Assembly (NCBI GenBank): GCA_965178125.1
Contig: OZ237764.1
Location: forward strand, 434,001-498,000
Origin: Bilabrum cf. latius
Taxonomy: Eukaryota
Reading direction: 5' to 3'
DNA: 64,000 nucleotides
Part shown: in pieces, positions 1 through 64,000 of the stretch
How positions within the stretch are numbered: the stretch's first letter is position 1
How the letters are laid out: each line of letters starts with the position of its first letter
The notes under the pieces: generated by a model
Database searches by the model: none
Seen by the model: only the letters and a program-made list of their open reading frames with translations
What the model was told of the DNA's origin: nothing
Made by a program: the position numbers and the translations under genes

Positions 1-864
1 ACGGATCCCACGGATGACGCAGACGACGAGTGGGGCGGCAAACCGGGGGCAGCGCCGGCAGGGAGCCCTCAGAGCGTCGTCGCTGGTGTGACGAGTGATG
101 GTGTGACGAGAGCATCTTCGGGCGCGGCAGTGGCATCGTCCTCGGCTCCGAGGTACAAGCACCTCGAAACCGACGACGGCTCCCACCTGCCTCCCATGAG
201 GCGTACTAAGCATGTGCCTGACATTGAGCCCGCCGGCAGTTCTCTTCAATCGAAATCGGGCAGGGGGCGTGGATCCAAGAGAGGGAAGAGGAGTCCCATG
301 GCAAGCAGCAGGAGCAAGGGGGGAGAACGAACAACCGCTGCCAAAAGCACAAGCACAAGCAGAAGCCCAACATCGAGGTCGAGTCCAAGCCAACAAGAGC
401 ACAGTGAAACCTCAGTAGACCCTCGGCAGATGCACGTGCATAAGGCAAAGTGGACGGACGGTGGGCTGGCTAGCGTTAGCCGCACTGGTGTGACGAGTGC
501 GCGACTGAACATGCGGCTAGGTGGCGATGGTGAAGACAAAGACGATGAGTCAGGCTCGCCAGCCAAGACCTAGCGCGGTGGCAGTGCCGAGGCTCGTGGG
601 GCTCGCGGGGTCGGCGTTCCTCCCGGATCCATGGGTAGTCCAGGCGCGGGGCGGCTTGTTTCACGCGGAAGCATAGGCAGGGGTTCGTCCGTTTTGCGCG
701 CGTCGAGAGGCGCGCGGGGCACAGGGCATGGTCTGTCGGGGGTGCGCACTGGCAGCGTGCATGGTCCAGGGCCAGGGCCAGGGCCAGGGCCAGGGTCTGG
801 CAGTCGGATCGGCGATGCCATCGCAAAGGCGGTCGAGGAAGGCGCACTGGGGTTCAATGGGTGA
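1..864 (+). CDS. 3' part of a low-complexity (S/G/R-rich) hypothetical protein; 5' end outside window
   Basis: Frame 1 is open from base 1. ORFs 88..573 and 631..864 are in frame, separated only by TAG 571-573. Ends TGA 862-864. Confidence 0.6.
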
Positions 865-1153
865 TGCGATGCATGCCGGCAAGAAAATCGGAGCTCTGAT
901 GCCTCAAGCGCTATGTAGGCCGAGCCAAGGCTACGACGCTGGGAGTGTGGCTGGGGGTCGGGAAGGAACCGGGATGAGCTGCGTTGCTTGTCGAGTGTGT
1001 TTGCGCTTCGGATGGGTATGCGCAACCGTTCGGGCAGGACAGACCTCCCTGAGGGCAAGTCAGACGGGTGGTGCTGGTCTAGACTCTAGATTACTATTGC
1101 GTATACAAATACCTTTGGATCTACAAGCAGTACAAGTATGCCATGCCACGGGA

Positions 1154-2758
1154 TCAAGAAATGATGCACGAACCGGGGCGCGGATTAGGCGGCAATGGGC
1201 CCGCCCTACCGGCCCCCGGATAAGAGGGCCCCGCTGACGATTGGTAACCACTTGCGTGCGATGGCATCCCCAGGTTGGGAAGTGGCCTTGGCCTTGCGTG
1301 GGCGATGGGAGGCCGGCCTGGTCTCGCCCCGTGATGCGTCGAGTGACCGGTTGCTGGTGCACCACCTTGCGCTGCGCCAGGCACCCCGTTCACTCCACTG
1401 CTCTGGTGAATCGGCTCGAAGTTGCCATTGCAGTACGTTGTGTCCCCCTTGATATCGTCTAGCCGCTCCCACACAACCGACGGCGCACCCTGTGCCAGGC
1501 CCTGGTCAGTCACGAGAAGGAACACCCTACCTTTGTGCACCGTCATGGTGTTGTAGTGTAGGTTCCTAAAGAATACCGCGACGTCGTGCTCCGCCAGCGA
1601 GTTCTGCAGCGCGACCAGCCCTGGCATCGTGATTTGCCCAGCGGTTTCCCGGAGGAACCTGCCCACTGCCTCCGACTGCACCGAGCGCGGTATTCGGGGC
1701 GATTTCGATTCAGAGGCAGATCCGCTGCCAGATACTTCGGCGGGCGGTGGCAAGCCTGTATCGGTACCTGACGATGCCGCTGCTGCCCCGTTTGCTTCCG
1801 CTTGAGGACCACTAGAAGCCCGCCGAGCAGCAGAGCGCTCTGTTGCCGCGCTTCCGGTGGCCGGCTGTGTGCTGGGTGTCGATCCACTAGAAGATAACAA
1901 TGGTACGTCCTGCCGTTGAGGAGCACGAGGGGGTTCGAATGGAGCAGCTGCTCGGGAGGACCCAATCCCCGGCTTGCTCTCCTCCACGGAAACAACACCA
2001 CTGGCACTGCCGGCGGCAGCTGGGATGCCAGATGTGCTTTCATCTGGATGCGACGGGACCGTCCCACCGGAAGCCTTGGCGCTGTGGGATTCAGTCCCTG
2101 GCTTGTCATAGACATTCCCGAGGTGCTGCTCGTACGTTGGGAGCGATGGCGGGACTGATGCAATGGGACCATCTGCCGAGCTGGATTGCATAGCAGCCGC
2201 CGGTGCGGCCTAACTCCCTTCTGTACAAAATAAAGCTACTCCTGGCGTCATTGGGGACACAGCTAGTTCGGTGGCTTTGTTGTATGTCAGCGTTTCTATC
2301 GAAATTCCCAGCGACTGCAGCTCTTCGCGAGTTCCGCCGCCCATCACCCAGGCATGAAGAATCCGCAGGCCCAACAGCTCGACAAGTTGCAGTTCAGCAG
2401 TAAGTTCGCATGACGATGGAGACGAAAAGCCTAAGTTTAAGTCCATTCCATGCTGCAACCGCGGCAACAGAGCGACAGACTCCGCAAGTACATGCTCTAC
2501 ATGACCTGAGGCCTCCCCGCTCGACTCTAGTTTTCTCGCTATATCGAAAAGGTAATTAGCTAGCATCTCTGCCAGAACACTCGACGGCAATCTCATTTGT
2601 TTGACGTGGGCATCAGGAATTTTAAGATTACCGCGAAGCAATAAGCAATTAGATGCAGCCACCAGCGGGCATGGCCCATTCTTGTTCTAGAGAACGATGG
2701 TTCGAGTCACTCCAGCTGTATGCACAGACTTAAGGGCGTGATACTTGTCGCCCTCCAT
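1154..2758 (-). CDS. MINDY-1/2 (FAM63) family deubiquitinase with C-terminal CaaX
   Basis: ATG 2758. IVL[TAG]NKNGPCPLVAASNCLLLRG catalytic Cys motif, LQHGMDLN, HAWV, VFFRNLHYNTM (catalytic His), LVTDQG, VVWERL. Ends CIIS-TGA. In-frame TAGs at 2689-2687 and 2212-2210. Confidence 0.92.
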
Positions 2759-2885
2759 GGACGATATATACTGGTGGATGAATTAGTTTACTGGAGCTTT
2801 CCGCGATATTTCGGCGAAGTCTGTGTTGCGTGCTGATATCGAAAATAATAATATTTAGCGGCACCTTCCCCATGCACTATAAATC

Positions 2886-3218: not shown

Positions 3219-4830
3219 TCAATCACTAGAGATAACCGGATTGCCAGCACTTGCTCCGGGTGAAGCGCCGCCTTCACCTTCAGCGACCGTGGAAGTCACT
3301 GCCGTAGCCTCCGGCCTTGCTGCAGCAGGCGGTGCTCCTCCGCCACCACCAGATTCGCCTGGTCCAGGGACTTCCCACTGCGGCTGCGCCTGGCCACTGG
3401 TGGCACCTGCAGCGTTTGAGCCGGGTACCCCGTGGTACTGACCGTGCACGGTGCCGGCGCCGGCAGCGGCTGGCGCAGTGGCGGCGGGTGCGCCGTGGGC
3501 GGGTGGCGGTTGGTGTCCTGGGAGACCCTTGCTCGCTTCCCCCGCGGAGGCAAGCGGCTGTGCCTGGCCATGTGCAGGGGGCTGTGCCTGGTCATGTGCC
3601 TAGTGCTGGTACTGCGGCTGGGGCTGGTACTGCGGCTGGGGCTGCGGCTGTGCCTGCGCTGCGTATTGCTGTGGAGCGCCTGTGTAGGGGCCAGGGGGCG
3701 GTGGCTGGTGGGACGGTGGCTGCTGCTGCTGGTACTGCTGGTGTTGCTGCTGCTGGTGCTGCTGCTGCTGGTGCTGCTGCTGCGGCGGCGGTGCCCACTG
3801 GCCCTGTGGATGTCCCTGTGCTGGCGCCTGGCCTGTTGCTGGGGGTGGAGGGTGCCCCGTAGCGTATCCCGGGGACATCACCATGCCCTTGCCTGCGTCT
3901 GCCCCCGCTCCGGGGAGGGGTCCCGCCCCCGGCATGGGGTCCATTCCCGGGTGCACCCCGGGGGTGCCTGGGGGAGCCATAGATGCCGCGCCAGGGGCTG
4001 CCCCTGGGATGGCACCGCCCTGCGTGGCAGCGGCCTGGGTTGCAACCGGTGGAGGGGGGAAGAGAGGCACGTCTGGCAGCCTCCTTACCACCCCCGTGGC
4101 CATGAATGCCTCGATCCATGCGTCCAAATCGCCCTCTGATGGGAGGCAAATTTCCCACGCGAGTCCGGCTGGACGCCTCAGCACCACAGAGTATGGCGAG
4201 CTGAGCTGCGGGTTGACGAGCCACGAGGACATCCCGTCTCGAGGGGCGAGCTTGAGGCCACGCTAAAGGGAGCAGTCATCGAGCAGGAACGCGCCTTTTG
4301 GCTCGGATTGGGTGTGCGTAGCCTGCGAAAACGAACTATTCAAGCGTAGTACTGGACCATCATTCATGCTGGCACTGCAAAATGCATTAGGTAGCGATCA
4401 TTTGAAGGAATGCAGGGCCGAAGCTGCTGGGCCTCACGTAATACAACAGAATGCTCCCCCTCTGAACCAAGAATCGCCTCTGGAAATTTGCCCCAGCCAC
4501 ATATTTGTTGACGTATCCATATGCAGCGGGTTTTCTATAGTCGGAATCGAACCCTTCGAGAAGTGGTCTGGTGAGGACCACATTTGGGTGTGTTTGCGGC
4601 GCCGGAGCCGGAGCCGCTTGGCGGGGCTCAGACTCAGTAGCTGTAGCACTGGTGGCGTCTGCAACGCTTCCGGCAGCAGTACCTAAATCTGATGAACTCC
4701 CTGCATGCTACAAATGCTGTGGGGTTGGGGATGAGGTCGCCGGAATGCTAACAGATCTAAACTCTGGTGGACTCTACATTCCAGCAGCACCTTCTCCCTG
4801 ACTTGAAGCATGTGCAGCAGGGCTATCCAT
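3219..4830 (-). CDS. PH-domain protein with Q/P-rich tail; one intron (4323..4437)
   Basis: Spliced product AYGYVNKYVAGANFQRRFLVQRGSILLYY|ATHTQSEPKGAFLLDDCSL[TAG]...EICLPSEGDLDAWIEAF fits a PH fold. TAGs at 4776, about 4713, 4265 and 3602. Ends TGA 3221-3219. Start is ATG 4830 or upstream ATG 4965 (uncertain). Confidence 0.75.
4323..4437 (-). other. Spliceosomal intron (115 nt)
   Basis: GTGAGG...TTTTCGCAG; removal restores the PH-domain frame. Confidence 0.8.
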
Positions 4831-4977
4831 TGTAGATACGCAGGATACGTATGAATTCACCTGCAAAGCTTGTGCAAGGCAGTCTTGGGGTAGACTGTAG
4901 CTGGAGGAAGGATCCGACGATCTGGCGGCTCCGGACGAATTTCTTGACTGGAGAAAGCATGTCATTTAAATAGGTGC

Positions 4978-7900
4978 ATGGCTCTCGCCCTAGCTTTGTT
5001 TGTCATTAATTTCGCGCCAATTAGCTTTGGGGCTCGCGTGTCTCGTCTTGATGCGCCGTTACACCTTCGTGTGTCCGGATCTCATCTGCCGACCGTAGTG
5101 AACGACCAGGTTGCATTTGCTGTTGGCTCTGATGGCGGCACAGACAGCGATTTGTGGGGCTCGTCTGTTGTTGGAGCGCAAGTGATTGTCAATGAGCTGT
5201 CTTGGGACGGCGCGGTTGCCGCCTGTGCCTGGGACTCGGGCATGATCGTAATCCAATCCCCGCAAGAGCTCAGCTGGATCAAGTACGCAGGAGAACCCCT
5301 GCAGACAAACACTAAATACGCCTGGAAAGCGCGTATTTGGACCGATTCCGCCGGCCCGGATGCTCCCAGTCCGTACGCTGACGGACCGGAATTCCAAACG
5401 GGACTGCTGACCGAGCAGGACTGGAACGGTGCCGAGTGGGTAGGAAACGCAGTCACCAATCGTTCCATGCCGGAAAGCAGCGCGTCCCAGCTACTCTTTG
5501 ACGTTGAGTTCAACATTCCGGCAGGCGCAACTCTGCAGCATGCGTCCTGTTTCGTCTCGGGTCTGGGCGCCTATGCTGGCTGGCTGAGCGGCGTGCCCCT
5601 TGCCCCCGACGAGGTGCACGCAACTGTGACGGAATGGAGGAACAGGACCTTGTACGACGTGATCGACTGCACAGAGGCGCTCTAGCAGGCGCTGGCAGGG
5701 ACCGATGGCGCGGGGAGCCCTCTGGTGGGCGATTCCAGGGTCACGGTCGCATTCGAAATGGGCCGGTGGTGGTGGGCCATCTGGAACGATTACTTCTACA
5801 ACCCTCCATTTCCCATGCCACAGGGGCCGAGGATGGTCAGATTTGCCATCCAGTGGCAGACCCAGAACCCATCGGCGAACGGCACGGCCATCTCACGGGC
5901 ACAGGACGCCCGGCTGGGGGCAGGTGACCTGATTGAGGACGACATGCACCTGGGCGAGTTCAGGAGCGGCTAGAGGGCCACTCCGGGGTGGACGCAGAAG
6001 GGGTTCAACCCAGGTGGGACGCAGTGGCGGGCGGCGGACAAGCTGCCGGGGCCCACTGGAGCCATGGCGGTGACGCAGGAGCCCCCCATCCGGGTGCAGG
6101 AGACCCTCTTCCCCGAGTTTCTGGGGAGGAGGGGGGACCAGGGCCAGCTGGTGTTTGACGCGGGGAGGGAGGTCTCTGGACACTGCATGCTGGTGCTGCG
6201 GGCCGAGACTGATGCAGATGGTGCGGGGACTGGTGGTCCTGCCAGCGGGTCCGATTGGTGCACGGCCGGCACGGTGGTCAAGACCATCTATGCTGAGACT
6301 CTCTACGACAATGGCACCGTGATGCCCACACCCACGGTGCCTGACCGCAAGCATGGCGGCAGGGAGCAGCAGGTGGCCCGGTATGAGTGCGCAGGTGACC
6401 CAGGCTTGGACCCTCCCGTGGTGCCCAACCGCTTCATGTACACTGGCTATCGGTACATCGGGGTAGAGGGGTGGAAGGGCCCCTCGCCCTCCCAGTCCAA
6501 CCCCGTGCTCAAGTGCCTGTCCTTCCACACTGACCTGAAGAACGCTTCCGAGCTGGAGCTGGGGCCCGAGCTTGAGGATGCCTCGGCATCGGACCAGAGC
6601 GCCGTGAGTGCGGGGTATGCCCTGACCCGAGTGGTGAACGCCACCCGTGCATCCGGCGTGCTGAACTTCATGTCTATCCCCACGGACTGTCCCACGAGAG
6701 AGAAGCGGGGCTGGATGGGAGACAGCGGGGCGGCTCTTCTCTTCATGGCGGCTGCCTTCGACATGCAGGCCCCTTACAGGAAATGGCTCACCGATATCCG
6801 GCAGGGGCAGTCTCATGCGACCCACAAGGGAGCCGTGGGCGACATGGAACCCTCGATCTTCAACTCTGCCAGCGGGGCTTACTACGGCGAGGTGCCCTGG
6901 GGGGCTGCGTACCCGCTGATATTCGACTACGTCTGGCGCCACTACGGCGACAGTGGCATCCTCGAGGAGCACTACCAGGGCGTGAAGGACTACGTTGACC
7001 TGCTCCTGGGGTTCACCAACCAGAGCACTGGCGTGTTTATTGCGGATGCATTTCCAGGCACGGCGTACGGTGACTGGTGCGCTGCCCGTAACGTGACTGA
7101 AGGGTGCGCGCACGTGTCCAACGACATTGACTCCTATTTCCTTCTGCTGGGCCTGGACGCCGTGACTCGAGCGGCTCACGCCATGGGCGACGCACCCAGT
7201 GAGGCAAAGTACGGCAAGCTGGCAACGCAGCTGCGGCTGTCGTACCACGATGTGTACTACGACCAGACCACGGGTCAGTTCAGGGACCCTGACCTGCCGG
7301 CAAAGACCGGTCGAACAAGGGCGGTGAACATCCGCCCGCCACTCCAGACATCACAGGCAATCGGCCTAAGGCTCGGTGTGCTTCAGGACCCGGCCGAGAA
7401 GCAGCGTGCTGCCGCAGTGCTGAAGCAAAGCGTAGTTGATACCGACTACGCGATGCAGACCGGGGTGGTGGGTGCAGCTGTCCTCACAACCGTGCTGCAG
7501 ACCGAGGGCTTCGAGGAGGAAGCGGCCCAGGTGCTGACCAGGACGGGCCTGCCTTCCTACTACTGGATGGCCACCACGGGGGGAAGCACCATCTGGGAGC
7601 ACTGGTTCGGATCGTACTAGAATGGGTCCTATGCTGGCGGTTCTTGGGCGCACATCATGTTCGGGGGCTCCGTGAGCTTCGCTTACACGGGCATCGGCGG
7701 CATCCGGCCGGTAGATGACTCGGCCGTGGACCCGTGGGGCCAGGTGGTGGTGGCACCCAGGCCAGACCTGGTGGGCGTGCAGTGGGTCAGCAGCTCGAGG
7801 ACGATGGCGAGGGGCATAGTGCGGGCCAACGTGTCTGTGCCTCTGCCGCAGGAGAGCGAGGATGGAGCCGGGACGGTGACACGGGTGCAGGTCAGCGTGC

Positions 7901-8211
7901 CTCTGGGCACCAAGGCGCGCGTGATCGCGCCGGTCAGCTCCATGGAGTCCTGCAGCGTATTGGAGCGGACCAGCGGATAGGGAGGACAGTGCAGCAGCGC
8001 AGTTAACCAGCAGGGAAGCGGTGGAAACGAGGACCAGAACTGCGGTCGGTGGCACGTTGCGTTCGGCGATCGTGCAGCTGTGCTTGCCTCGCTGTCTGGG
8101 GCGGACGCAACCCAGCAGCCTTCAAGCTTGCAGAGCAGCAGCTCAGTCGCGCCTGTCATAGGCCTGACTCTCGGTAGCGGAACGTACGACCTGGCGGTGA
8201 AGTGCGCGTGA
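4978..8211 (+). CDS. Secreted alpha-L-rhamnosidase, GH78 family
   Basis: Signal-peptide-like N-terminus, YAWKARIW, FQTGLL, FMYTGYRY, SIPTDCPTREKRGWMGD, YGDWC, TIWEHW, SWAHIMFGG, C-terminal GSGTYDL. Four ORF pieces in one frame joined by TAGs at 5683, 5971, 7618, 7978. Ends TGA 8209-8211. Confidence 0.92.
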
Positions 8212-8539: not shown

Positions 8540-11500
8540 TCATCTCTCTATCCTCCCCTCTTTCCCACCATTGTCGATTTGAAGGCCTGATCTTGACCTT
8601 GAGTGGCTTGCCTCCGCCAGCAGCCGTAGCACGCGCGGCAGGAAACGTCTCCGCAGCTTGGTCCTCCGTAGCTGGGAGGTAGGGGTGGCTAAACCCGTTC
8701 TGGAGCTGAACGCGCGCGTGGTCAAATACAGCATCCGAGGCATCTCACACGGCAGCAGCCCCGCCTCTTCCGCCGCCTTCCGCATCAATCTCATCGCATG
8801 CTACTGCACGTGGCTGTGCCTGCACAGCGCCCTAAGGTCGAGCTGAATGTCCTGTGTTGCCCTCTCGTCAGCACCAAAGAAGTACGCGGCCTCGTGGTCG
8901 ACGCTCACGCACGCCGCCATGCCCCACGCAGGCTCCTTGGCCACGTGTGTCCCGAGCAACCCACGGTTCCCCTTGAGGATATAGCCGTGGTCTGACAGGC
9001 GCTCGCCCCTTAGATTCAACAAGTACACGCTCTTGCACAGCTATGATGCGTGGCATAGCACGGCTTCCACCTCCTCGCCGACGCAGTAGAGCCTCCTGCC
9101 ATCAGGGGCCCTTGCAGCGCACGCGATGTCAGGGCGATGGTCCGGCTCGCGCACTGCCGCACTGCGCGATGAATCCCCGTCATAGCTGCTGTCAAGTGCA
9201 TTCGCGCCTGACGCATGCGTGGTCGTCACATCCGCCGCTTCATACACGCTGAGGATGTCGCCGAGCACCTCCACCCGCTGGCGAGGCCGTAGCAGCAGAC
9301 CGTCTGTGGAGGGGCACGTGATGCGCACGTCAGGCGCAACAGCTTTGGACCTTTTCGTGGCTTTCATTTTCTCTGCTCCATCCAATGGTGACTTATTCTG
9401 CTTCTCGGACCCTATTACGGGCCCCTTCGTGTTGCTAGTTCCAGCGAGCGCAACAACCACGATGCCACACCTGTCGTAGATCTATGGGCCAGGCATGGAC
9501 TGTGCTCCCATGGGAGTTCGATTACTCGGATCGTCTCCTTCCGTCCCGGTTTCCTAATCGATGCAGCCAGATAGGTCCACGTTGGAGCCTCGACCAAACG
9601 CGTGTGACGAGTACACCCCCTGGCCACGGCCCTCGGTGGCCGCCGAGCCTGTGGCGCACGAGGCGTCGTCGTCGTCCAACCCACGGGTTGTTCTCGAATC
9701 CCCGTACATGCAGCGCCCCACCATCTCCATAGCAGGGTGTACCCCTGGCACCTTGGCGTCACGAACCGGATTCGTACTGCTACTGGGCTCTAGTCTAGCC
9801 TTTGCACCTGTGCCGCTACGTTGTGCTGCCTTGGCTGCCACGGCACGCCGAAGCGATCTGGGCTGCAATATGCACAGCTCTCCAACGACTGCCTGCAAGG
9901 GACTACCAGCAGGAGCATAGCCACTGGAAACAGTCGGGGGGCGGCCTCGCCTCATCGATGATATTAGGGCCTGGGCGCACCGTGGTGCCACTGTGGCGTT
10001 TGTGCCGCCCAGCCTGAACGTGCCGATTCCACATGCCTGCTAGTGGCTTGCTTTTCCCTACTCTTCGCCATCCAACTTCCGTGGAAGAGCCTTCTATACC
10101 TTTTCTGTCTGCTACTTGCTATTTTCATCGTTTTCACCGCGCTGAGATTCCTTAGTAGCCGGTGCATCGGACCCTCGGTCGGGGAGGGGTAACCGGGCCG
10201 AGACTTCCACTGGGAGCACACCCAGCTGCAGACCCGGCACGCCGGACAGTGTCACGGAATACTTGTGGGGATCCAGCTTCCCCTTGAATTGACCCGCGAT
10301 CATCCGAATACCCCTGGAAATGATCTTTTTCGATTTGCGCAAGGATCCGCTGCTTGAGCTGAAAGAAGAGGATCCGTCTTCTCGGCTGCTATGGCTATTG
10401 TCTTCTTCTCTGAGAACCTGCGGCATCGATACCGCTACAAACCCGTATTCAGGAGCCGTGATACCCTGCACCATGGGCACGCACATGGACAGCTCAACTG
10501 TCTCGCGCACCGCTGGATTCACGCTCAGGGTGCGGCAATGGCTGCCCATGACAAGGATAAACCGGAATGCGCTGGATCCGATCACCCTCTGCAGGCCCCT
10601 GAACACGAGCACATCGCCCCACGAGTCCTGCCTGAGGTACCCAGGGTGCCCCTTGCTCCTGTACTCCTTCTGTTTCTGCTGCACCGCAAGCTGGTATGCC
10701 ATTCGGTAGGGCAAGGACCAGGACCGCTGGATCCTCTGGAGGTGCAGCGACACTGCCTGCAGCATCCTGCTGGATGCCGTGAGGAATGTAGGCTTCAGGT
10801 CGTGGATGGCAGCTGCCAGCTGGTCAAATCTGTTCGGGGGTACAAACCCGATGGACATGCCCAGTCTCAGCGCCAGGAGCACCATCGCCCTCTCGCCCTC
10901 GTACGCGAGCGGCAGGTACGAGCAATGAACGTCTTGCGAGCGCAACAGGCCGCCAAGTGGGTGTGCCCTCAGTCGGAGCGCCATCGCACACAAACTGCCC
11001 TACGTGTGGTCGATCCGTCTCACGCCGTCATCCTGAGTCCATTCGAACATGACGCTGGCAGGGGCCTCTGGGCTGTCTGGTGCCCTATGCCGGAGGGGGT
11101 ACGCCCTGCCCGCCGCGACCACGAACGAGTAGTCTCTCAGCTCCACACCGGCTTCATGCGCCAAGATCTGCTCGTCGTATCCAAGAGGCTGCGTCTGGAT
11201 GACCAGCTTGATGCCGGGGCAGTGCCCACTCGCGATCGCCTCGATGATCACAGGCACCCAGGACCTGTCGCACACGATGGCACCAAGGTTGCACAAATCC
11301 AGCACCTCGGTCAGCAAAGCGGACGAAGGTGCGTGCAGTGCCACAGACACGAGCTCAAAGCACCAGCATGCGGCGTCCGTGATCACCCACTGGGGGCAAT
11401 TCGGAGCCAGAATTCCCACCTCTGTTCCTGGTCGCAGACGGCCTAGGTGCACGAGCCCCGACCCGAAAAATGACGCCTTCGCCTGCAGCTCGCTGTAGCT

Positions 11501-18220: not shown

Positions 18221-18288
18221 TGCTGCGCGATAACCAAGTCAGCTTGTTGCGTTGTGACGTGACGAAACGATTTGCCGGATGGATTCAG

Positions 18289-18318: not shown

Positions 18319-18375
18319 GTGACCGTTCCGGCAGCATGACAGGTGGTGGATAGCGAAGCAACTTCCCGCCGATCT

Positions 18376-53100: not shown

Positions 53101-53801
53101 CTGCTGGTGGTGCTGCAAGTGCTGATGGGGCGGTGGAGGGAGCTCAAGGCGGAGCGGCAGGCCCCGACGATGGGCCGCAGGAGGACGATGGTGTGACGAG
53201 TGAGGATGCTACTCCGCAGTCCCCTTCCGGCGGGGGACAACAGGCGGCATCAATTCAGGAGGATGACAAGGAGGCGACAGAAGCCGAGCCTGCCCCGTCC
53301 TCCCCTGCCCCTGCCCCTGCCCCTGCCCCTGCCCCGGCAGCCGTTCCTGTCGCATCACCGGCCCCGGCCCCGGCTCAGGAGCCAGCACCGGCCTCACCGT
53401 CGCAGCCCTCGGGATCCGGTTCCGCAATCGCCGCGGCGCCGCTTTCCCCGTCCTCCGCGCAGCCCCCTGTTCCGCCGGTGACGGCCGTTCCTGGCAGTCC
53501 GCCCGCCTCACCCGGCGCGGGGCAGCCTTCCATGCATCCTTCCAACGGGTCGCCGCAGGGAGGGGCAGGAGCCTCGTCTGCGAGCACGCCCGCAAAGTCG
53601 CCTCCCGGGCCATCGGCGGGCGCCGGATCCGGAGCCGCTGCCACCCCCGAGGAGGTCGCTGATGGTGAGGGCGATGCGGCGCCGGGTAGCGATAGCGGCG
53701 GGGCGGCGGCACCAGGGGAATCCACCGCGGATTAGACAGCTGCTGAGATTGAAAAGGAGCTGGCCGAGGCTGGTTTGGGGCTCGATGACGACTGGGAGTG
53801 A
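50124..53801 (+). CDS. COPB2: Coatomer subunit beta-prime (Sec27); probable ATG-only first coding exon, intron 50127..50444
   Basis: DRVKSCDFHPTEPW, FEAHQDFIR, FEGHGHYVM, NPKDSNTFATASLD, GGDKPYLISGSDD, RIPEAAFFARSY, LADPAEYPNLF. TAGs at 52191, 53064, 53733. Acidic tail LDDDWE-TGA 53799-53801. Confidence 0.96.
50127..50444 (+). other. Probable spliceosomal intron (318 nt)
   Basis: ATG|GTGAGT...GTTCGCAG|TCT gives M-SLDLK. The acceptor is well supported; the donor choice is less certain. Confidence 0.6.
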
Positions 53802-55782: not shown

Positions 55783-56787
55783 TTACTTGCGGGCGGCGGA
55801 CTGCTTCCTGGAGCTGCGCCTAGACTCGCGGCGGGCCTTGGCGCGGGCCTCCATGAGCGCCTTGTACTGGGCGGCAGCCTCCTTGCTCCTGGCGAGCGCG
55901 TCAATCTTGGCCTTCTTGATCTCGGCCTTGTGCTGCACGCGACGGGGGGTCACGAGGCGCTGCACGTGGGTCTTCTTGGTCTTCTCCACGCCCTTGGCGT
56001 TGGTGTACTTGTAGGGCACCACAAACTCCCTGGGGTCCTGCTCCTTGGTCAGGCCGAACATCTTGCGGATGTTGTTGGCGCGCTTGGGGCCGAGGCGGCG
56101 GGGGCGCTCGCTCTCCTTGTCGGACAGGCCGGGCACGGGCTCGTCGCCCACCTTGGTGACGACCATGGCGAGGGCGGCGATATCGCGGCTCACAATGCAG
56201 CCACGCACGGACTTGCGGCGGCGCTCGCCCTTCTTGCGGGCGCGGAAATACACCTGTCCGGGGTTAAGAAGCAGGCGCACGCGGCGCGCGGACAGAACAC
56301 CCTGCATCATGGGGAAGCCCTGCTTGTCGAAGCCGCCAGTGATCCTGAACTTGTATCCCTTGAACTGCTCGCCAAGGCCATCGCCGTCCACCTCCTGGGA
56401 GATACGCTTGTCGTACACGACAGCACTGCGATTACAAAGAACGGGGGAAGCCGGAGTGAATATCAGGTGCAATCAGCGAACGAACGGCAGCAAGCGCAAT
56501 GGCGCAGCAACTGCCCTCTGCAGCCGCGCGCAAACCACCAATGCAACAACCGCGCGATCTCACAGCTTCTTCTCATCGTTGATGTCGAAAGGAGCCTGGG
56601 CACCCGTCTCCGGGTTGGCAATGTTCAGCTGCGATACGAAAGGCAAGCACAGGCAAGGTCGTTGATGATGGTTGGCATCCAAGAAAAGGTGCCATGCTTG
56701 CAATATCACCTAGTTTTGGATGGTTTCAGATGCAAGAACATATAAATGATTTGAATCTGGCCTAATGCCAATGAATCTTACCTTCAT
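55783..56787 (-). CDS. RPS6: 40S ribosomal protein eS6; exons 56787-56782, 56628-56564, 56425-55783
   Basis: MK|LNIANPETGAQ..DEKKL|AVVYDKRISQEV..GGFDKQGFPMMQGV..RKSVRGCIV..PRRLGPKRANNIRK..QRLVTP. Introns GTAAGA..TATCGCAG and GTGAGA..AATCGCAG. Ends TAA. Confidence 0.98.
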
Positions 56788-56930: not shown

Positions 56931-57930
56931 ATGTCTTCTTTGTAGCTGACTCTTAAGTCGGCCGCATAGGGTGGATCAATAGGAATACACCGCGGTGGGG
57001 GCGCTCAACTTCCTGGCGAACCTGCACATGACTATGCGCACCGCAGGTTTGTGCAAGGGTGCGCTTCTTTATTGTCCAAACTCGCTCCCAGCGTGGCTTC
57101 TAGTGCCTCTGTCTCCGGATTGGCATCTTTGCTCCCTGATGAAAGTGCTGAGATTGAGCTGGGCCGGCGAGCGGCCGAATCAGTTGATGCGCTGTGGGGC
57201 TCATGCATCCGAAACGGTGGAGACAGACTTTTTCTGCCGATAATTGAAGTGAGGTATTATCACTTGGAATAATATATCGCATGGTAGGTCATAGCGTGCT
57301 TTTATTTGCGATACGATCGCGCGTACATGGTCAAGCAGCTGCGCCTGCATACCCAGCCGTTGCAAGTCACCGCCCCTTTTGAGTGGCTCGCTGGGCTGCT
57401 GCGGATCGCTTCGTATTGACCCCTGACTTTTGCGAGCAATATTCGATCCATGTTTTGCCCCTATACCGCAGTTGGGACGAGCATTGAGCGAGCAGTGCGG
57501 GTTGCACCAGACGGCCAGACGCTCCTGCTTTGACCGAGCAGCGCTGCAGCCGGAGCAGTTGCGCGAGCTGGCCGCCGCGGGGCCGGGCCCCAGGCACGGA
57601 GCCAGGCTTGCATTGCATTGCGCTGCCGTTGCAGCCGATGCCCGCGCCGCTCTCAGGGTGCATCGCACTGCAGACCCCTCGCTGCAGCGGGCGAGCGCGA
57701 GGACGGAGCTGGCAGGGTGCCTGCGCAGCTGCTCGAGGGCCGCGTGGCTGCTCGCTTCCGCTGGGGGGGAGCCAAGGGACAGCGGCGCCTGGGCCGTCAG
57801 GGAGGTTGCAACCGCCGGAGCGCTGCTCGCGGGAGCCCTTTGCGATTCCGAGTCGTGGCCGGCAAGCGCCACCCACGGCCCCGGGCTGTGGGCGGCCGAG
57901 GCGGCCGCCGCGTCCGCGACCGCTGCCGCT

Positions 57931-57965
<35 letters not shown>

Positions 57966-60900
57966 AGGCGCCCCGATGGACGACTCGGAATCAAAAGCCA
58001 GCGGGGCGGAGGGGGAGGGCGGAGGCTCTGGGGAGGATGCTCCGATCGGTGAGGCATCGAGCGGGGCGCTGCTCCGAGCGGTCGGCGGGGGCGCACCGGT
58101 GCCCCGGTGGCGGGACACGCTGGTCGCAACCGCCCCCGCGCTGTCCCTGCTCCTGCTCGCCGCCCGCGCCTGCCCCCCGCTGCGAGCTCCCAGGCACTGG
58201 CCATGGAGGGCGCGGCTCGCGGCCCAGCTGGCGCGGATGCAGGCGCTGGGGGGTTGGAGGGAAGCGGCGCTGGCGGTGCTGGACGAGGCCTCTTGTTCCC
58301 TGGGTTGTTCCCTGAAAGAGGTGGAGCAGGTGCCCCCCGTCGCTTCGGGGGTCCGCTGGGCCCTTGGGCATGCCTCCGCCACCGTGCAGGTGGCGCGCTT
58401 CGCTGTGGAGGCCGGTGGATTCGGAGCCGGAAAGGAGGCCGCGCTGCGGAAACTGGTGCATGCCGGTGGCGAAGAAGGCGAAGGAGGAGGAACAGGGAGC
58501 GAGGACGGCGCGACGCCCGAGGTTCCGCAGCCGCCGCGCGGCGCCGATCTCTCGATGCCGGCGGTCCGAGCCACCAGAGACGCCCTCGCACAAGCACCGG
58601 CCAGGTTCGGAAACCGGCCGCAGCTGCTGCTCATGGCGATGCTGTCCGCGATGCCGCCATGCGCGGCTCCGCTCGGCTCGGCTGGTGGCGGACACGGCGC
58701 CGGTTCGGAGCTCTTTGCGGTCAGTGGCGGCGCTTCTGCGGAACCAGCTGTGGAGGCCGACTCGGAGAACGCGCGGCGCCTATCTGCCCGTTTGCTGCTC
58801 CGCGCTTGCTGCGCCGTGGTGGTGCCCCGCATGGCCCCAGAGACCGCCCGTCTGGCCTGCGCCGCCATCGCGGCCGTGGGCGGGATGGGCGGCGCCCCCC
58901 TCGGTATGACCGTTGGGAGGGGGGGCAGGGAGTCCAGGGAACAGCGGAAGAACAGGGTGGATCGGCAGCGCAGAGCAGCGGCGGAGGCCGCGTGCCCGGA
59001 CCTGGCCAAGGTGGCATCGAGGAGCCGCTGCCCGCCCAGCGGCACCACCTCGGAAGAAGCGACCGACGGACGGTGGTGGCAGGCGCAGCGGCGGAGAGCC
59101 ATCGAGGCGATCGAGGGGGCCGCGGGCATCCGAAAGAAAGAGGGACTGTCAGGGGGGGAGGCGGGTGGAAGCGCGGGCGACTCGGAGTCGAAATCCTCCG
59201 AAGGGGCTGGCGAGAGTCGCCAGCAGCTGGTGGATCGGATCTTCCGGGCGCTGCCCCTCGACCCCCCGGGGCTAGAGGAGGAGTGCCCGTGCGCCAGCGA
59301 CCGGATCTTGCTCCGATCACCCGGAATCGCAATTGAGATGGCTCGGCGGCGCGCCGCCTTGGCCCCGCTGCTGTGGCGCCGCGCAGCGGAAGCGGAACAG
59401 CGGTCCGTCCGCACCCGACGCGCCGCTGCGGCCAGCCGCGCGGAGCACCGCATGAACGAGGCCGAATCGCGAGCGAACGTTCTCAGGGAACAAGCAGAGG
59501 AGGCCAAGCGCAAGGCCAAGGCCTAGGAAGAAGCGGAGGAGGCGGCTGCTGCCGCCGCCGGCGCAAAAGGCAAGAGCAAGGGCAAGGCGAAGCCCAAGAA
59601 GGGCGCCAAGGGCAAGGGCAAGGGTAAAGGGGGAAACGATCCGGAGCCGGGCGAGGAGGAGCTGGCCCAGGCAGAGCGGGTCATGACGGAGGCCCGTGAG
59701 GCGAACGAAGCCGCTGCGAGAGCCCTGGAGCAGGACCTGAAGGAGAGCAAGGCCAGGGTGCAGGCGATGCGAAGGAGGGCGAAGTCAGCTGCCGTGGAGG
59801 CTTCCTCCGATGACAGCGGGGGGGTGGCCGAATTCGAGGCCACCAAGGCGGGAAGGGACGTTCCGCTTCCGCTCATGGTGACCCTCGTGCGGAACCTGTG
59901 GCAGTGGGGCGACCGCTCGAATGCGCGGCGCCTCCTGCCAGTGGCGCTGGCGCGAGTCACGGCGGCCCGCGCCGCACTCGCGCGCCAAGCTGTCAAGGAG
60001 GCGAACTCAACGGAACTATCGGCCCCGGGCTCGAAACTGCCCCACGCGGTGCGGCTGGCCGGCACGGTGTACGGAGAGGCGGGCGAGGCCGGGGCGGCGG
60101 GTCACCACCCCGGGTCACCACACGCCGGCGATGGTGACCCGGCCGCGCTGGCAGCCGCTTCCGTCCTGCAGATGCACACCCGCGGAACCGGCGCCGCGGC
60201 CGCCGGCATCACCCCGTCGTCTGCGGACGTGGTGCCCGGCGTGCCCGGCGCCGGTGCTCCGGGCGTGGTGCAGGCGGCCACAGGTGCGCTGGCAGCCACG
60301 GGGCGGGCGGACCTGGGCCACGACCCGACGGGTGACGCGTCCAGGCCGGGCAGTCGCGCCGTTGGAATGACGTCAGGCGCGGCGGGTCACGATGCGCCCC
60401 TGACCCAGGCCCGCCTTCCCGCGCCCTCCGCCATCCTGCCCCCGGCCACTGCCGAGAGAGACGCTGCCGAAGCCCTCGGGCGGATGGCTGCCGAGCTGGT
60501 GCTGCTTCGGAGGCTGCTGGCCCTGGAGACCGCGCTGGCAGAGACTCGAGCCAGGAGGGGCGGGACCGCGGCAGCAGAGGGAGGTCATGCGGGGAACAGC
60601 GGGAGGGCAGCGTCAGGCGCGGGCGGGTCGAATACCAGCCCCGGGACAAAGGGGTAGGGGGAGGGGGAAGGCGGTAAAGAGAAGGAGGATCAGAATCAAC
60701 CTCGAAAGGGCTGGCTGGACGAAGACCCCACGCAGCTGCTGCCCCGCCACGGCTTGCTCCTCTGTCCACCGGTGGATTTTGCGAGGGAGGGACAGGCCGC
60801 CACGGACGCGGGCGCCAGGCACCCGCCTGACGTGGTGCCTGTGGCACGGGTGCGGGCGCTGGCTGCGGCAGCGTGCGCGGCTGCCAAGCACGGCGCCGGG

Positions 60901-63900
60901 GATCGAGCCCCGATGGTGCTCGCCTCCGCAACGGCCCTCTGCTGGCGCGCCTCTGCCCGCGCGGACGCCCTGCTCCGATCGATGGATGCCTCAATTGCGG
61001 AGGGTCGTGCTAGGGGTACCAAGATCGCAGCCATGGCCGTCGCTGCGGACGGAGCGTCGGCCGTGCTGGCGGCCTCGAGCGTGTCCGGGCACCTGACGGG
61101 CTGGCGGCGGCAGTGCCGGGCGGGACTGGTCCTGGCGCGTGAGCTGCTTTCTGCCGGGGCACACAGGGCCGCGGTCTCAGCGGCGAGGCGGGCCTTGGAG
61201 GCTGCGGAACTAGGTCGCGGCGCCGCGGCGGAGGAGGCCGTGGGGCAGCTGGCCAGGGAGCGGGCGACGGGCGCGAAGGGGGCTGACGAGTGCTGGCAGG
61301 AGGCGGCCGCGCTGGCGCTGCAGTGCACTGCAGGCGGCATGTGGACGTCGGACGAGGGTCCGCTGCGGGCCGGTCCCACGGAGAGGCACCTTCACGAACG
61401 TTCGCAGAGCGAGGGCGGCCAGGGCACCAAGCCGGGCCACGGGCCCACTGGCAGGGACTCGCGGGCCGTGGGCCCCGGCCAGGTGGCTTCGCAGGAGGCC
61501 GCGTGCCTGCACTTTGACGCGGTTGCAACCTATCTCAGGGCACAGATGGCCTCGGCCGCAGCGGCGCAGGCGCAGAGGGACAGCCTCCGCGAGCCCCCGC
61601 CGTCGGACCCGGTCGCAAGGGCTGCGCACACGCGCGCCAAGAGGCGACTGGAGCTGGCGGCGGCTGGGGCGGGCCGCGTCAGGCGCGGGGCCTCCGCCAT
61701 TGGGAGGCAGAGGAGGGCCGATTCCGAGGACGATTCCGAGGACGAGGAGGGGCAGGAGGGACGAGCGGGTGCTGGCGCTGATGGTGTGACGAGTGAGGAG
61801 TCGGGGGACCCCTGGGGCCCCGCTGCCTCTGGACCTGACGAGGCCTCCCTCATGGCCTTGCGGGCGTGGGCGGGGGGGGACGCAGGCTGCCTTGCTCTGG
61901 TGCACTTGTGTGCCCTGAGGTACGACCGGTCCCCAGCTCAACGGCTAGATCGGCTGGAGGAGGCCTTGCGATGCGCCGACACGGCGGCCGAGCTTGCCGC
62001 CCGCGTGCGGCAGTGCAGTGCAGCTTTGGTGCTGGACGCAGCGGGGGACGTGGACGTGTCACGCCTGCAGCGGGGATCGAACCTGGGCGGGACGCAGGGG
62101 TCTGAACCTGAACCGCTCCTGTTGGCCCGGTGGGGCGGCGGCGCTGCATTCCTGGTCGCAAGACCCGGAGCCGCAGGATCATCATCCTCATCGTCATCCT
62201 CATCGTCATCGCTCGGGAGCTCTGCAGGAGAGAGAGAAGCAATCGATGGGTCGGCGAGCTCCGCCTGGTGCTCCCCTCGACGGGCGGGGGCCTGGGTGTG
62301 GTGCAGGGAGGGACGGGCCAGTGTGACGAGTGGCGGACAGCGGGGAAGGCAGGACCAAGGTGAGGGAGCCGGGTCGGGTGGCAGCGGAACCTCGTCGGGC
62401 GCCGCGCAATCGATCGGAGGCGGTGGACTTGAATCGGTCGCCCGCGGGCAGGCAGAGCTCGCCGGGTCTGGACCGTCGTGCCCGGTTGCAACCACGTTCC
62501 TCATGCCCGAGCACGGCAGCAGCAGGAACACCACCCACGGGAAGGCAGAGAATGCACCCGGAGGCCACCGCGAACGTTCGCCAGGGTTCGCCCAGCGGCA
62601 CGTGGTGTGCGTGCTGCGGGGAGGCAGGAGCAGGCAGACCGTGTTCGTGGCAGCCGACGGGGCCGGATACCCGGAGCCGAAAACATCCCAGCAGCCCGTG
62701 GTGCTGTCTAGCCCCCTGCCCCTTTGCATGGTATGGGGAGCCGTGGCGATGGAGGCCTGGAGGTGCGGCGAGGCAGGGTTGGCACGGCGCGCGGCGATGC
62801 GGGCGGCGGCGCCCTTCCTTCTGGTGGGTCCCCCGCGACCTTCACTCTCCGCAGTAACCGCCGGGGCGCAGCTCGCGCTGTCGGCGGGGCTGGTGCAGCG
62901 CACTGCGGCGCAGATCGCCAGCTAGCTGCCCTGGTGGCTGATCGTGCTGTCTGCCACGGCGGAGGGCGGGGCCGCCATCGGCTCCGGGATCGGCGAGGCC
63001 GGCCTGGGTCTACCGGGCGGGGGGACAGCGGGCGCAGCGTGGGAGTCGCAGTCGGGCGCGAGGCATCGCCTGGAGGCGGAAGAGGACGTCAAGACCAAAT
63101 GGAGGTGGGACGCCTGGGACTCTGACCGGGCTGGCTGGGGAACAAGAGGGCCGGCGGTGCACCCGCAGCTGGGGTACCACTCCGGCGCCCTGGCGCAGCC
63201 CATTAATCGCACTCGTCACACCGTCGATCTCACCCGGGCCCAGGGACCCTACGTCGACCCGCCCATCGGCGGGTACCCCGGGCCTGCCCCGGCGGAGAGT
63301 GATGGTCGTCATGGTCAGTCGTCCCCCACGGACCGCAGGCGTGTGGGTCTGCCCGCCCACGCCCCGACGAACCACAGGGGATGGGCCGCCAGCGCGCGCA
63401 GGCTCCATCGGTGGTACACGGGGTCGTGGTCCCATGCCCAGCGGCCTGTGCGAGCAGACGGGGGTCCCGCCTCTGCGGCGGAGGCCTCCCGACTCGCTGG
63501 AATGTCGCCCGCGGCGCGATTCGCCGCCGCCGCCTGTCGGCGGTGCGCCACGGCGGCTGCCGCGCTCGAGGCGGCGGCTCTGGGCCTCGCACCCACCGCT
63601 GGGGAACAAGCCCTCGCCGCGCTGGTCACTGCAGCCACGCCGCTCCTCGCGATCGGGTCCTAGGAGAGTGTGACGAGTGCGCTGCTGCAGCCGTGCCTGC
63701 GGGCGTGGGCGGCGGTGGGCTCCCTGGCCCGGGACACGCTGCAGTTCAGTGCACGCGGGAGGTCGCAGGTGCTGCGCGCTATGGTCGCACGGCTTGGTCT
63801 GCTGGTGGCGCACGCGAGCGCTGGGTAGGGCCTGTCTGGCGCGTCTGGGGGCGGGGCGGGTGCAGCTCTCGCGCGTTGGCAGAGAGAGGTTGCGACCGGC

Positions 63901-64000
63901 GGTGCGGGTGCAGGCGTGGGATCGGATCAGCTGCCCCGCGGTGCCTCTGGCCCTGCTGGACTGAGCCTCGTCCGCGGCGGCGATGAGATCGGATCAGCAT
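56931..64000 (+). CDS. Very large Ala/Gly-rich helical protein, CFAP54-like N-terminus; intron 57249..57471; runs off window
   Basis: ATG 56931; exon 1 contains 2 TAGs. GTGAGG..TACCGCAG intron. ORF pieces in one frame joined by TAGs at 59524, 60655, 62923, 63661. LGRALSEQ..SCFDR, DPSLQ and PPLRAPRHWPWRARL recall CFAP54 (by eye). Confidence 0.55.

What the first reader, a model, noticed from the sequence alone, without database searches (positions are those of the whole stretch)
1..64000. Variant nuclear genetic code: UAG = Gln while UAA and UGA stay stops
Seen: in nearly every gene, consecutive ORF pieces share a frame and are broken only by TAG, including about 23 TAGs and no TAA/TGA across 9.7 kb at 8540-18220. 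Complete genes end in TGA (most) or TAA (RPS6, original Clu-TPR end), never TAG. Essential motifs lie downstream of TAGs (SLC12 tail, EEP SDH motif, COPB2 C-terminal half, GH78 catalytic domain). Established: in most nuclear code variants UAA and UAG are reassigned together; UAG-only reassignment is rare (assignment as in NCBI table 15; reported for the fornicate Iotanema). Inference: this may be an independent case needing a tRNA-Gln(CUA) and an eRF1 that discriminates UAA from UAG. The organism cannot be identified from this window.
Basis: partly seen in the sequence, partly recalled or inferred. Interest (0 to 1): 0.95.

Follow-up and report, generated by a model that had tools for sequence, protein, structure and literature searches.

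The report
UAG read as glutamine, GC-rich eukaryote
This stretch of a GC-rich eukaryotic chromosome comes from an organism that reads the stop codon UAG as glutamine while still ending its genes with UGA or UAA, a rare kind of genetic-code change seen so far in only a handful of lineages.

Summary
In 14 coding frames (16,086 codons) there are 83 in-frame TAG, 0 TAA and 0 TGA. TAG is as frequent in frame as out of frame. The ORF at 8540-18238(-) has exactly 23 TAG.

Spliced transcript contigs from three runs in two studies keep all 8 TAGs they cover unchanged, so editing, micro-introns and assembly errors are excluded for those sites.

TAG means glutamine:
- It sits on a column that is Q in 120 of 120 threonine-aldolase-like homologues.
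- It sits on the Gln of the MINDY "Q..NGPCPL" motif.
- It lies inside poly-Q runs.
- It pairs with CAG at 4 of 5 sites against an 87%-identical relative, which has its own in-frame TAGs.
- It falls on CAG-consensus columns in 9 of 13 TPR-repeat cases.

TAA is not sense: about 19 would be expected under UAR=Gln, and 0 are seen.

The code itself is a known kind (NCBI table 15). The organism differs from the described carriers: 62% GC and UGA as the main stop. The tRNA, eRF1 and the organism's identity could not be examined.

The parts
1154..2782 (-). MINDY deubiquitinase ORF with 2 in-frame TAG (first bases at 2689 and 2212); ends in TGA
   Evidence: Pfam PF04424, E 4e-57. The TAG at 2689 aligns with the Gln of 'iitQstNGPCPL' in MINDY-1 chain 5jkn_A.
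4948..8211 (+). GH78 alpha-L-rhamnosidase ORF with 4 TAG (5683, 5971, 7618, 7978); ends in TGA
   Evidence: Pfam Bac_rhamnosid6H, E 6e-58. The TAG columns are variable or R-rich and do not decide the residue.
8540..18238 (-). 3232-codon ORF (Exo_endo_phos plus AMP-binding domains) with 23 in-frame TAG and no TAA or TGA; ends in TGA
18340..23784 (+). 1814-codon low-complexity ORF with 11 TAG; no Pfam family
29808..35549 (-). TPR_12/TPR_10 repeat gene with 10 TAG; ends at a TGA that sits in a Cys column of the repeat
24241..29807 (-). Continuation of the 126-nt TPR array downstream of that TGA. It holds further TAGs, 4 more TGA at the Cys column, 1 TAA and a frameshift near 27645. It is probably an untranslated or decaying part.
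37460..39232 (-). Triose-phosphate-transporter-family ORF with 2 TAG; ends in TGA
40102..43995 (+). Threonine-aldolase-like (Beta_elim_lyase) gene with a long Q-rich tail and 15 TAG. The TAG at 40540-40542 lies in the 'SGTMAQQ' motif. TAGs at aa 531, 540, 1034 and 1036 lie inside poly-Q runs.
   Evidence: Pfam. The column is Q in 120 of 120 homologues. PDB chains 3pj0 and 3lws have Q there. Poly-Q context.
44303..47320 (-). SLC12 cation-chloride cotransporter, last exon, with 1 TAG (first base at 44464) 53 codons before the TGA stop. Upstream introns are at 47321-47645, 47747-48118 and 48183-48295.
   Evidence: Pfam. Spliced contigs of X5, X6 and X7 cover 44105/8-47320 with 0 other letters.
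50445..53801 (+). COPB2 (coatomer beta') exon 2 with 3 TAG (52191, 53064, 53733); ends in TGA. Intron at 50126-50443.
   Evidence: PDB 5a1u_D, E 3e-249. RNA contigs. The TAG at 52191 is CAG in relative L001. A conserved acidic C-terminal motif follows the last TAG.
54003..55172 (+). PX-domain gene with 4 TAG (54210, 54372, 54813, 54993); ends in TGA
   Evidence: Pfam PX. RNA contigs cover all four TAGs unchanged.
55783..56425 (-). RPS6 exon 2 with no TAG. TAA stop at 55783-55785, followed two codons later by TGA. Intron at 56426-56563; poly(A) site near 55318.
57427..63999 (+). ORF of more than 2190 codons running off the window, with 5 TAG; no Pfam family
1..864 (+). 3' end of an unknown gene with 1 TAG; ends in TGA
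3219..4397 (-). Q/P-rich ORF with 2 TAG; ends in TGA

Best explanation
The window is nuclear DNA of a GC-rich (62%), intron-poor eukaryote whose cytoplasmic translation reads UAG as glutamine. UGA, the main stop here, and UAA still end genes.

Shown:
- TAG is kept in mature, spliced, polyadenylated transcripts.
- It occurs in frame at the neutral (off-frame) density.
- It lies upstream of conserved domains and C-termini.
- It aligns with glutamine.
- A relative at 87% protein identity shares the trait at different sites, so TAG and CAG interchange like synonymous codons.

Inferred, not shown:
- A tRNA-Gln with anticodon CUA reads UAG. A CUA anticodon does not read UAA, which would explain why UAA stayed a stop.
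- eRF1 has lost recognition of G at the third stop-codon position.
- The change may have been eased by GC pressure that made UGA the usual stop and UAG stops rare (codon capture).
For: 1. Frames. There are 83 TAG, 0 TAA and 0 TGA in 16,086 in-frame codons. At off-frame density 87, 41 and 270 would be expected. One ORF has 23 TAG in 3232 codons.

2. Transcripts. Contigs of X5, X6 and X7 (two studies) are spliced at five GT..AG introns, carry a poly-T loose end at 55318, and vary about 1000-fold in depth between genes. The genomic run X1 is colinear at even depth. Each of the three runs covers 8 of 8 TAG sites in SLC12, COPB2 and PX, with 0 other letters and 0 gaps in those pieces.

3. Meaning.
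- The TAG at 40540 falls on a column that is Q in 120 of 120 homologues and Q in PDB chains 3pj0 and 3lws.
- The TAG at 2689 falls on the Gln of the MINDY-1 active-site motif. That this Gln is catalytic is my recall, not a call.
- 20 of 166 residues next to a TAG are Q, against 5.4% background, with TAGs inside poly-Q runs.
- In 58 TPR units, 9 of 13 TAG lie in columns whose consensus is CAG.
- Against relative L001, 4 of 5 TAG sites pair with CAG and 1 with CGA.
- A 98%-identical fragment, P0246, has Q where the window has TAG.
- A rough log-odds sum over these sites puts Q far ahead: +38, with R next at -19.

4. Stops.
- About 19 in-frame TAA would be expected if UAR=Gln with the same A/G third-base bias. 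None is seen (P about 4e-9).
- RPS6 ends with TAA where its relatives end.
- COPB2 and SLC12 reach conserved C-termini and then TGA.
- Transcript contigs end 100-200 nt after these stops.
Against: - No tRNA gene lies in the window or in L001, and no eRF1 was available, so the mechanism is unverified.
- There are no peptide data.
- Several TAG sites fall on columns that are not Q: GH78 aa 342 is R in 98 of 121 homologues, though the closest relative has G there; GH78 aa 246 is R/K/Q/H; GH78 aa 891 is mixed; COPB2 aa 637 is T/V/P/K. One orthologous pair is TAG with CGA.
- 'UAG never terminates' rests on only 3-4 genes whose true C-terminus can be judged.
- The run kinds are guesses, and the tool flags X6 as 'probably DNA'.
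- Contigs show the majority sequence only, so partial editing cannot be excluded.
- The zeros for TAA and TGA are partly built into how the ORFs were chosen.
Confidence: 0.9

Rival explanations
1. Both UAA and UAG encode Gln (the ordinary UAR=Gln code, table 6), and TAA is missing from this window only because the genome is GC-rich.
For: GC is 62% and A-ending codons are under-used (CAA:CAG = 0.23). The only well-supported TAA stop, in RPS6, is followed two codons later by TGA, so on its own it does not prove termination at TAA.
Against: With the same A/G bias, about 19 in-frame TAA would be expected beside 83 TAG. None is seen in 16,086 codons (P about 4e-9). Off-frame TAA occurs 82 times in the same DNA.
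Confidence: 0.03
2. UAG has a dual, context-dependent meaning: Gln inside genes and stop at some gene ends, or it is read by efficient near-cognate readthrough (tRNA-Gln CUG) with an unchanged eRF1.
For: In this window I cannot detect genes that truly end at TAG, because every TAG was read through to the next TGA or TAA. Only COPB2, SLC12 and RPS6 have independently recognisable C-termini. No tRNA or eRF1 data were available.
Against: TAG is not depleted in frame (0.0052 in frame against 0.0054 off frame). It occurs 22 codons before the COPB2 stop, with a conserved C-terminal motif after it. Up to 23 TAGs lie in one ORF, where even 90% readthrough per site would leave under 10% full-length product (arithmetic).
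Confidence: 0.05
3. The code is standard, and the TAGs are assembly or sequencing errors, pseudogene mutations, or are removed or edited in the RNA.
For: CAG to TAG is a common transition. The distal TPR array does look decayed (TGA, TAA, frameshift).
Against: The DNA run X1 and three transcript-like runs from two other studies give identical letters at all 8 TAGs covered. No TAA, TGA or frameshift accompanies 83 TAGs. Essential single-copy genes are affected. A relative has TAGs at other positions of COPB2 and SLC12.
Confidence: 0.01
4. UAG is a sense codon but encodes another residue, such as Arg, Glu, Leu or Ser.
For: GH78 aa 342 aligns with R in 98 of 121 homologues. One orthologous pair is TAG with CGA. 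TPR columns 20 and 30 are E-rich. UAG=Leu and UAG=Ser are reported in other eukaryotes (passages of PMC11687900).
Against: An invariant Q column (120 of 120), the MINDY Gln, poly-Q embedding, 4 of 5 pairs with CAG, and a log-odds of Q +38 against R -19.
Confidence: 0.01

Closest known systems
Iotanema spirale (Fornicata) nuclear code: UAG=Gln, UAA and UGA stops (Panek et al. 2017, PMC5304391; abstract, section 7 and passages read)
   Same: Only UAG is reassigned, and to glutamine. UAA and UGA terminate, and UAG is not seen as a terminator. In-frame UAG partly falls on conserved Gln columns and partly on variable ones, as here.
   Different: I. spirale ends 104 of 119 scrutinised genes with UAA and 15 with UGA (section 7). 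This window has 12 TGA against 3 TAA (Fisher P = 1e-7), and it is 62% GC. It is therefore very unlikely to be that organism. The T32G change in the eRF1 GTS motif proposed there could not be checked here.
Phyllopharyngean ciliates (Hartmannula sinica and a second lineage) and Protocruzia tuzeti: UAG=Gln only (McGowan et al. 2024, PMC11687900; passages read)
   Same: The same codon reassignment, inferred in the same way from in-frame UAG at Gln positions. The same argument applies that a CUA anticodon leaves UAA untouched.
   Different: In those ciliates GC is 27-54%, UAA is the commonest stop and UGA the rarest (1.7-13.1% of genes). Here UGA dominates, GC is 62%, and the DNA is a long multi-gene stretch with genes on both strands. 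COPB2 and RPS6 best hits are not ciliates, but no ciliate sequence was in my trees.
UAR=Gln codes (table 6: many ciliates, Hexamitinae, Streblomastix, ulvophytes; Amoeboaphelidium as cited in PMC5304391 and PMC11687900)
   Same: Stop-to-glutamine reassignment, and enrichment of the new codon in Q-rich tracts.
   Different: In those codes UAA is sense as well. Here there are 0 in-frame TAA where about 19 would be expected.
UAG reassigned to other residues with UAA kept as stop: Rhizaria sp. exLh and TARA phyllopharyngean MAGs (Leu), Scotinosphaera (Ser) (passages of PMC11687900)
   Same: UAG is decoupled from UAA.
   Different: The residue differs; here it is Gln.

Membership tests
UAG=Gln, UAA/UGA=stop nuclear code (NCBI table 15 assignment) | In-frame UAG inside conserved protein-coding genes, present in mature mRNA | tested here: met
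   83 TAG in 13 of 14 frames. 8 of 8 covered TAGs are unchanged in the spliced contigs of each of 3 runs.
UAG=Gln, UAA/UGA=stop nuclear code (NCBI table 15 assignment) | UAG positions correspond to glutamine | tested here: met
   Q in 120 of 120 homologues at the BEL site. MINDY Gln. 4 of 5 orthologous pairs with CAG. 9 of 13 TPR cases in CAG columns. Log-odds. Some sites fall on variable or R-rich columns.
UAG=Gln, UAA/UGA=stop nuclear code (NCBI table 15 assignment) | UAA is not used in frame and terminates genes | tested here: met
   0 in-frame TAA against about 19 expected. RPS6 ends at TAA where its relatives end. Only one well-supported TAA gene end lies in the window.
UAG=Gln, UAA/UGA=stop nuclear code (NCBI table 15 assignment) | UGA terminates genes | tested here: met
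   12 ORFs end in TGA. COPB2 and SLC12 reach conserved C-termini just before TGA. Transcript contigs end 100-200 nt later.
UAG=Gln, UAA/UGA=stop nuclear code (NCBI table 15 assignment) | UAG is never a genuine terminator | tested here: inconclusive
   None of the 3-4 genes with a recognisable C-terminus ends at TAG. That sample is too small, and the other ORF ends were defined by reading through TAG.
UAG=Gln, UAA/UGA=stop nuclear code (NCBI table 15 assignment) | Cognate tRNA-Gln with a CUA anticodon | not testable with these tools
   No tRNA in the window or in L001. No genome is held.
UAG=Gln, UAA/UGA=stop nuclear code (NCBI table 15 assignment) | eRF1 N-domain altered so that UAG is not recognised | not testable with these tools
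   eRF1 is not in the window, no genome is held, and no usable query sequence was available.
UAR=Gln code (table 6) | In-frame UAA as well as UAG | tested here: not met
   0 in-frame TAA in 16,086 codons.
Identity with Iotanema spirale | UAA is the predominant stop (104 of 119 genes, PMC5304391 section 7) | tested here: not met
   12 TGA against 3 TAA here. Fisher P = 1e-7.

The most novel reading that the evidence does not exclude
This is a further, independent origin of the UAG-only to Gln code, in a lineage outside ciliates and fornicates. The lineage is a long-branch eukaryote whose nearest named COPB2 and RPS6 relatives are stramenopiles. It would be the first GC-rich case in which UGA, not UAA, is the main terminator. 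At least three related taxa share the trait, so the reassignment could be dated and its tRNA and eRF1 changes compared among relatives. Loss of UAG stops under GC pressure (codon capture) would then be a second route to the same code.
Probability: 0.45. Interest if true: 0.75.

Novelty: new member of a known kind. Interest (0 to 1): 0.66.

Why it matters
Nuclear codes in which UAG and UAA have different meanings are few. The passages I read name Iotanema, Protocruzia tuzeti, some phyllopharyngean ciliates, a rhizarian and Scotinosphaera. These codes bear on a long-standing question: why the two codons are almost always coupled, and how eRF1 can tell them apart.

A GC-rich carrier with UGA as its main stop is the mirror image of the AT-rich, UAA-terminating carriers. 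It would test whether mutational pressure, rather than the peculiarities of ciliates, can free UAG.

DNA and transcript-like data for this organism, and contigs of relatives, are already public. The tRNA, eRF1 and timing questions are therefore directly answerable.

In practice, standard gene callers cut this organism's proteins at every TAG. The database holds only fragments between TAGs, for example P0246 and probably the GH78 fragments of relatives P0366-P0369.

Tried and rejected
- No whole genome is held for the window, so genome-wide codon inference and the tRNA and eRF1 searches were impossible.
- ARAGORN found no tRNA in the window or in L001. Rfam gave no match at gathering scores.
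- The look-up of sequencing runs listed no holder on record as RNA. The kinds of X5-X7 are guesses. I treat them as transcript-like only because of the splicing, the poly-T end and the depth profile.
- The COPB2 TAG columns (120 homologues) are variable or gapped and say nothing about the residue. The GH78 columns likewise.
- A PDB search with the acyl-CoA-synthetase-like part of the giant ORF gave no hit (after a frame slip).
- A genome-contig scan with RPS6 found no relative.
- Comparing ORF totals under 'TGA sense' or 'TAA sense' was not a clean control. In 62% GC DNA, removing TGA lengthens ORFs in all frames. I used frame-specific counts instead.
- Placement failed. In a 35-row COPB2 tree (33 rows picked by hand from 120 hits: all named higher taxa plus the top unnamed ones), the window and L001 sit on a branch of length 1.0 beside two unnamed metagenome proteins and next to stramenopiles. 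The tree held no alveolate, rhizarian or metamonad. The best named RPS6 hits are ochrophytes, at 60% identity or less. I reject naming a lineage.
- I considered TGA=Cys because of 5 TGA in a Cys column of the TPR array. I rejected it because TGA ends the conserved genes, and the array beyond the first TGA also holds a TAA and a frameshift.
- Literature: six searches found no description of a GC-rich, non-ciliate UAG=Gln organism other than Iotanema. Supplements were not seen, and subscription journals are not in the library.
Full report
**What is in the window.** The 64 kb are 62% G+C. They carry eukaryotic nuclear genes on both strands:
- a MINDY deubiquitinase
- a GH78 rhamnosidase
- a giant ORF with Exo_endo_phos and AMP-binding domains
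- a large TPR_12 repeat gene
- a triose-phosphate-transporter-family protein
- a threonine-aldolase-like enzyme with a Q-rich tail
- an SLC12 transporter
- coatomer beta' (COPB2)
- a PX-domain protein
- ribosomal protein S6
- several low-complexity ORFs

The Pfam assignments are, and the RPS6 ORF. No tRNA and no Rfam family is present.

**Checking the observation.** Under the standard code no ORF reaches 1000 codons. With TAG read as sense, ten do, the longest being 3232 codons. That ORF, 8540-18238(-), has exactly 23 TAG and no TAA or TGA.

I examined 14 coding frames, trimmed to the exon starts known from RNA. The in-frame counts over 16,086 codons are 83 TAG, 0 TAA and 0 TGA. The other two frames of the same DNA hold 173 TAG, 82 TAA and 539 TGA. 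TAG is therefore as common in frame (0.0052) as out of frame (0.0054). At off-frame density, about 41 TAA and 270 TGA would be expected in frame.

The ORFs were chosen as TAA/TGA-free stretches. The strength of the result therefore lies in their lengths and in the Pfam domains found downstream of TAGs, not in the zeros alone.

A control in which TGA or TAA was read as sense was not clean, because removing TGA lengthens ORFs in every frame of GC-rich DNA.

**Are the TAGs in the RNA?** One run search gave a genomic holder (X1-X4, one sample) and three further holders from two other studies (X5; X6 and X7). Their kind is only guessed as RNA, and the tool flags X6 as 'probably DNA'.

I laid X1, X5, X6 and X7 on 44001-57500. 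X1 is colinear with the window, introns included, at an even depth of 12-20. X5, X6 and X7 differ in three ways:
- Their contigs skip five GT..AG intervals: 47321-47645, 47747-48118 and 48183-48295 on the minus strand, 50126-50443 on the plus strand, and 56426-56563 in RPS6.
- Their depth ranges from under 10 in intergenic DNA to hundreds or thousands over RPS6.
- X7 carries a poly-T loose end at 55318, the RPS6 poly(A) site.

I therefore treat them as transcript assemblies.

Their listed pieces cover all eight TAGs of SLC12 (44464), COPB2 (52191, 53064, 53733) and the PX gene (54210, 54372, 54813, 54993). They show 0 other letters and 0 gaps, in each of the three runs. So these TAGs are not assembly errors, are not spliced out, and are not edited in the majority transcript. 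Contigs cannot exclude minority editing.

**Which residue?** The evidence comes from five independent directions.

1. *Invariant column.* The TAG at 40540 lies in the 'SGTMAQQ' motif of the aldolase-like enzyme. In an alignment with the 120 best homologues, the column is Q in 120 of 120. The two closest solved structures also have Q, while more distant threonine aldolases have N. One of the 120, P0246, is a 98%-identical fragment from a near-identical strain. It reads Q where the window has TAG. It also stops just before the window's next TAG, which shows how gene callers truncate these proteins.

2. *Active-site motif.* The TAG at 2689 aligns with the Gln of 'QxxNGPCPL' in MINDY-1. That this Gln belongs to the catalytic site is my recollection, not a tool result.

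3. *Poly-Q context.* TAGs lie inside poly-Q runs (aa 531, 540, 1034 and 1036 of the aldolase-like ORF). Overall, 20 of 166 residues flanking a TAG are Q, against 5.4% background.

4. *Paralogues.* The 126-nt TPR array gives 58 aligned units. Of 13 TAGs, 9 fall in three columns whose consensus codon is CAG. The other 4 fall in variable or Glu columns.

5. *Orthologues.* A metagenome contig, L001 (4975 nt, 54.6% GC), encodes COPB2 at 87% identity with SLC12 upstream, as in the window. It has its own in-frame TAGs. Across the two organisms there are five TAG sites: four pair with CAG and one with CGA.

Sites that do not point to Q also exist:
- GH78 aa 342 is R in 98 of 121 homologues, although the closest relative has G there.
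- GH78 aa 246 is R/K/Q/H.
- GH78 aa 891 and COPB2 aa 637 are variable.

Panek et al. saw the same mixture for genuine Gln codons in Iotanema (PMC5304391, section 7). A rough log-odds sum over all sites gives Q +38 and R, the next best, -19. Without the TPR columns it is Q +19 and R -5.

**Are UAA and UGA stops?** If UAA were also Gln, the A/G third-base bias of two-fold boxes (0.18-0.29) predicts about 19 in-frame TAA beside 83 TAG. None is seen (P about 4e-9).

- RPS6 ends with TAA at the position where its relatives' proteins end. A TGA follows two codons later, so this gene alone is not proof.
- COPB2 runs through a TAG 22 codons before its end, reaches the conserved acidic C-terminal motif, and stops at TGA.
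- SLC12 reaches what I recall as the usual C-terminal tail of this family and stops at TGA.
- Transcript contigs end 100-200 nt beyond these stops.

Whether UAG ever terminates a gene cannot be settled from 3-4 judgeable C-termini. Still, 23 TAGs in one ORF argue against leaky readthrough.

**Who is it?** COPB2 finds nothing above 48% identity. The best named hits are oomycetes and ochrophytes. RPS6 finds one unnamed relative cluster at 91%, with everything else at 60% or less, and named hits are mostly ochrophytes.

In a 35-row COPB2 tree, the window and L001 sit on a very long branch beside two unnamed metagenome proteins and next to the stramenopiles. The tree held no alveolate, rhizarian or metamonad, so the placement is open.

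At least three related taxa exist:
- the window's organism
- a strain at about 98-99% identity (P0243, P0244, P0246)
- the 87-91% relative (L001, P0122)

**Comparison with what is known.** UAG-only to Gln is the table-15 assignment. According to the passages I read, it is described for Iotanema spirale (PMC5304391), and for Protocruzia tuzeti and two phyllopharyngean ciliate lineages (PMC11687900).

All of those use UAA as the main stop. Iotanema has 104 UAA against 15 UGA. In the phyllopharyngeans UGA is the rarest stop and GC is 27-54%. Here there are 12 TGA against 3 TAA (Fisher P = 1e-7 against Iotanema) at 62% GC. The window is therefore very unlikely to be any of those organisms.

Six literature searches found no report of such a GC-rich carrier. 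Supplements and subscription journals were not visible.

**Mechanism (inferred).** A tRNA-Gln(CUA), one base away from tRNA-Gln(CUG), would read UAG but not UAA. This is the argument made in PMC11687900, and it would explain the decoupling. eRF1 must have lost recognition of UAG. Candidate positions from PMC5304391 are T32 in the GTS motif and L69. GC pressure favouring UGA stops may have emptied UAG of terminator use first. None of this could be tested here.

**Verdict.** The finding is a real and well-supported case of UAG=Gln with UAA and UGA as stops. It is a new member of a known kind, with an unusual compositional setting and relatives that share the trait.

Noticed in passing
window 24241-31996 (-): The 126-nt TPR array has 59 copies. 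It continues in frame past the TGA at 29808 that ends the long ORF. Five units have TGA exactly where 52 units have TGC (Cys). One unit has TAA, and there is a 1-nt frameshift near 27645. It looks like a recently truncated gene with a decaying distal array, or a mis-assembled repeat. TGA=Cys was considered and rejected.
   Followed up: partly
window 48485-49400: The intergenic stretch between SLC12 and COPB2 has about five times the depth of its surroundings in the genomic run X1 (about 110 against 20). It shows many loose ends and variant contigs, and almost no transcript depth. It is probably a dispersed repeat or mobile element.
   Followed up: no
window 36126-36796: A 75-nt tandem repeat of 8.9 copies at 98% identity lies inside an ORF-like frame with no Pfam match. 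It is a minisatellite or a repetitive protein.
   Followed up: no
window 8540-18238 (-): A single 3232-codon frame joins a sphingomyelinase-like Exo_endo_phos domain and an acyl-CoA-synthetase-like AMP-binding domain, with long low-complexity linkers. Whether it is one protein was not tested with RNA.
   Followed up: no
L001 495-1211 and 2-526 (-) against window 44303-47368 (-): The relative keeps the SLC12-COPB2 synteny. It has an extra intron inside SLC12, after 'FPAVTGIM', where the window's gene is continuous. Its GC is 54.6% against 62%.
   Followed up: partly
window 4948-8211 (+): The GH78 rhamnosidase starts with a hydrophobic, signal-like N-terminus. Apart from fragments of close relatives, its full-length homologues are about 25-35% identical. 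It could be a secreted enzyme of bacterial ancestry.
   Followed up: no
window 47321-47645, 47747-48118, 48183-48295, 50126-50443, 56426-56563: The five introns seen in transcript contigs share GTGAG at the 5' end, and four of the five end in CGCAG. Three of them lie in the 5' part of SLC12.
   Followed up: partly
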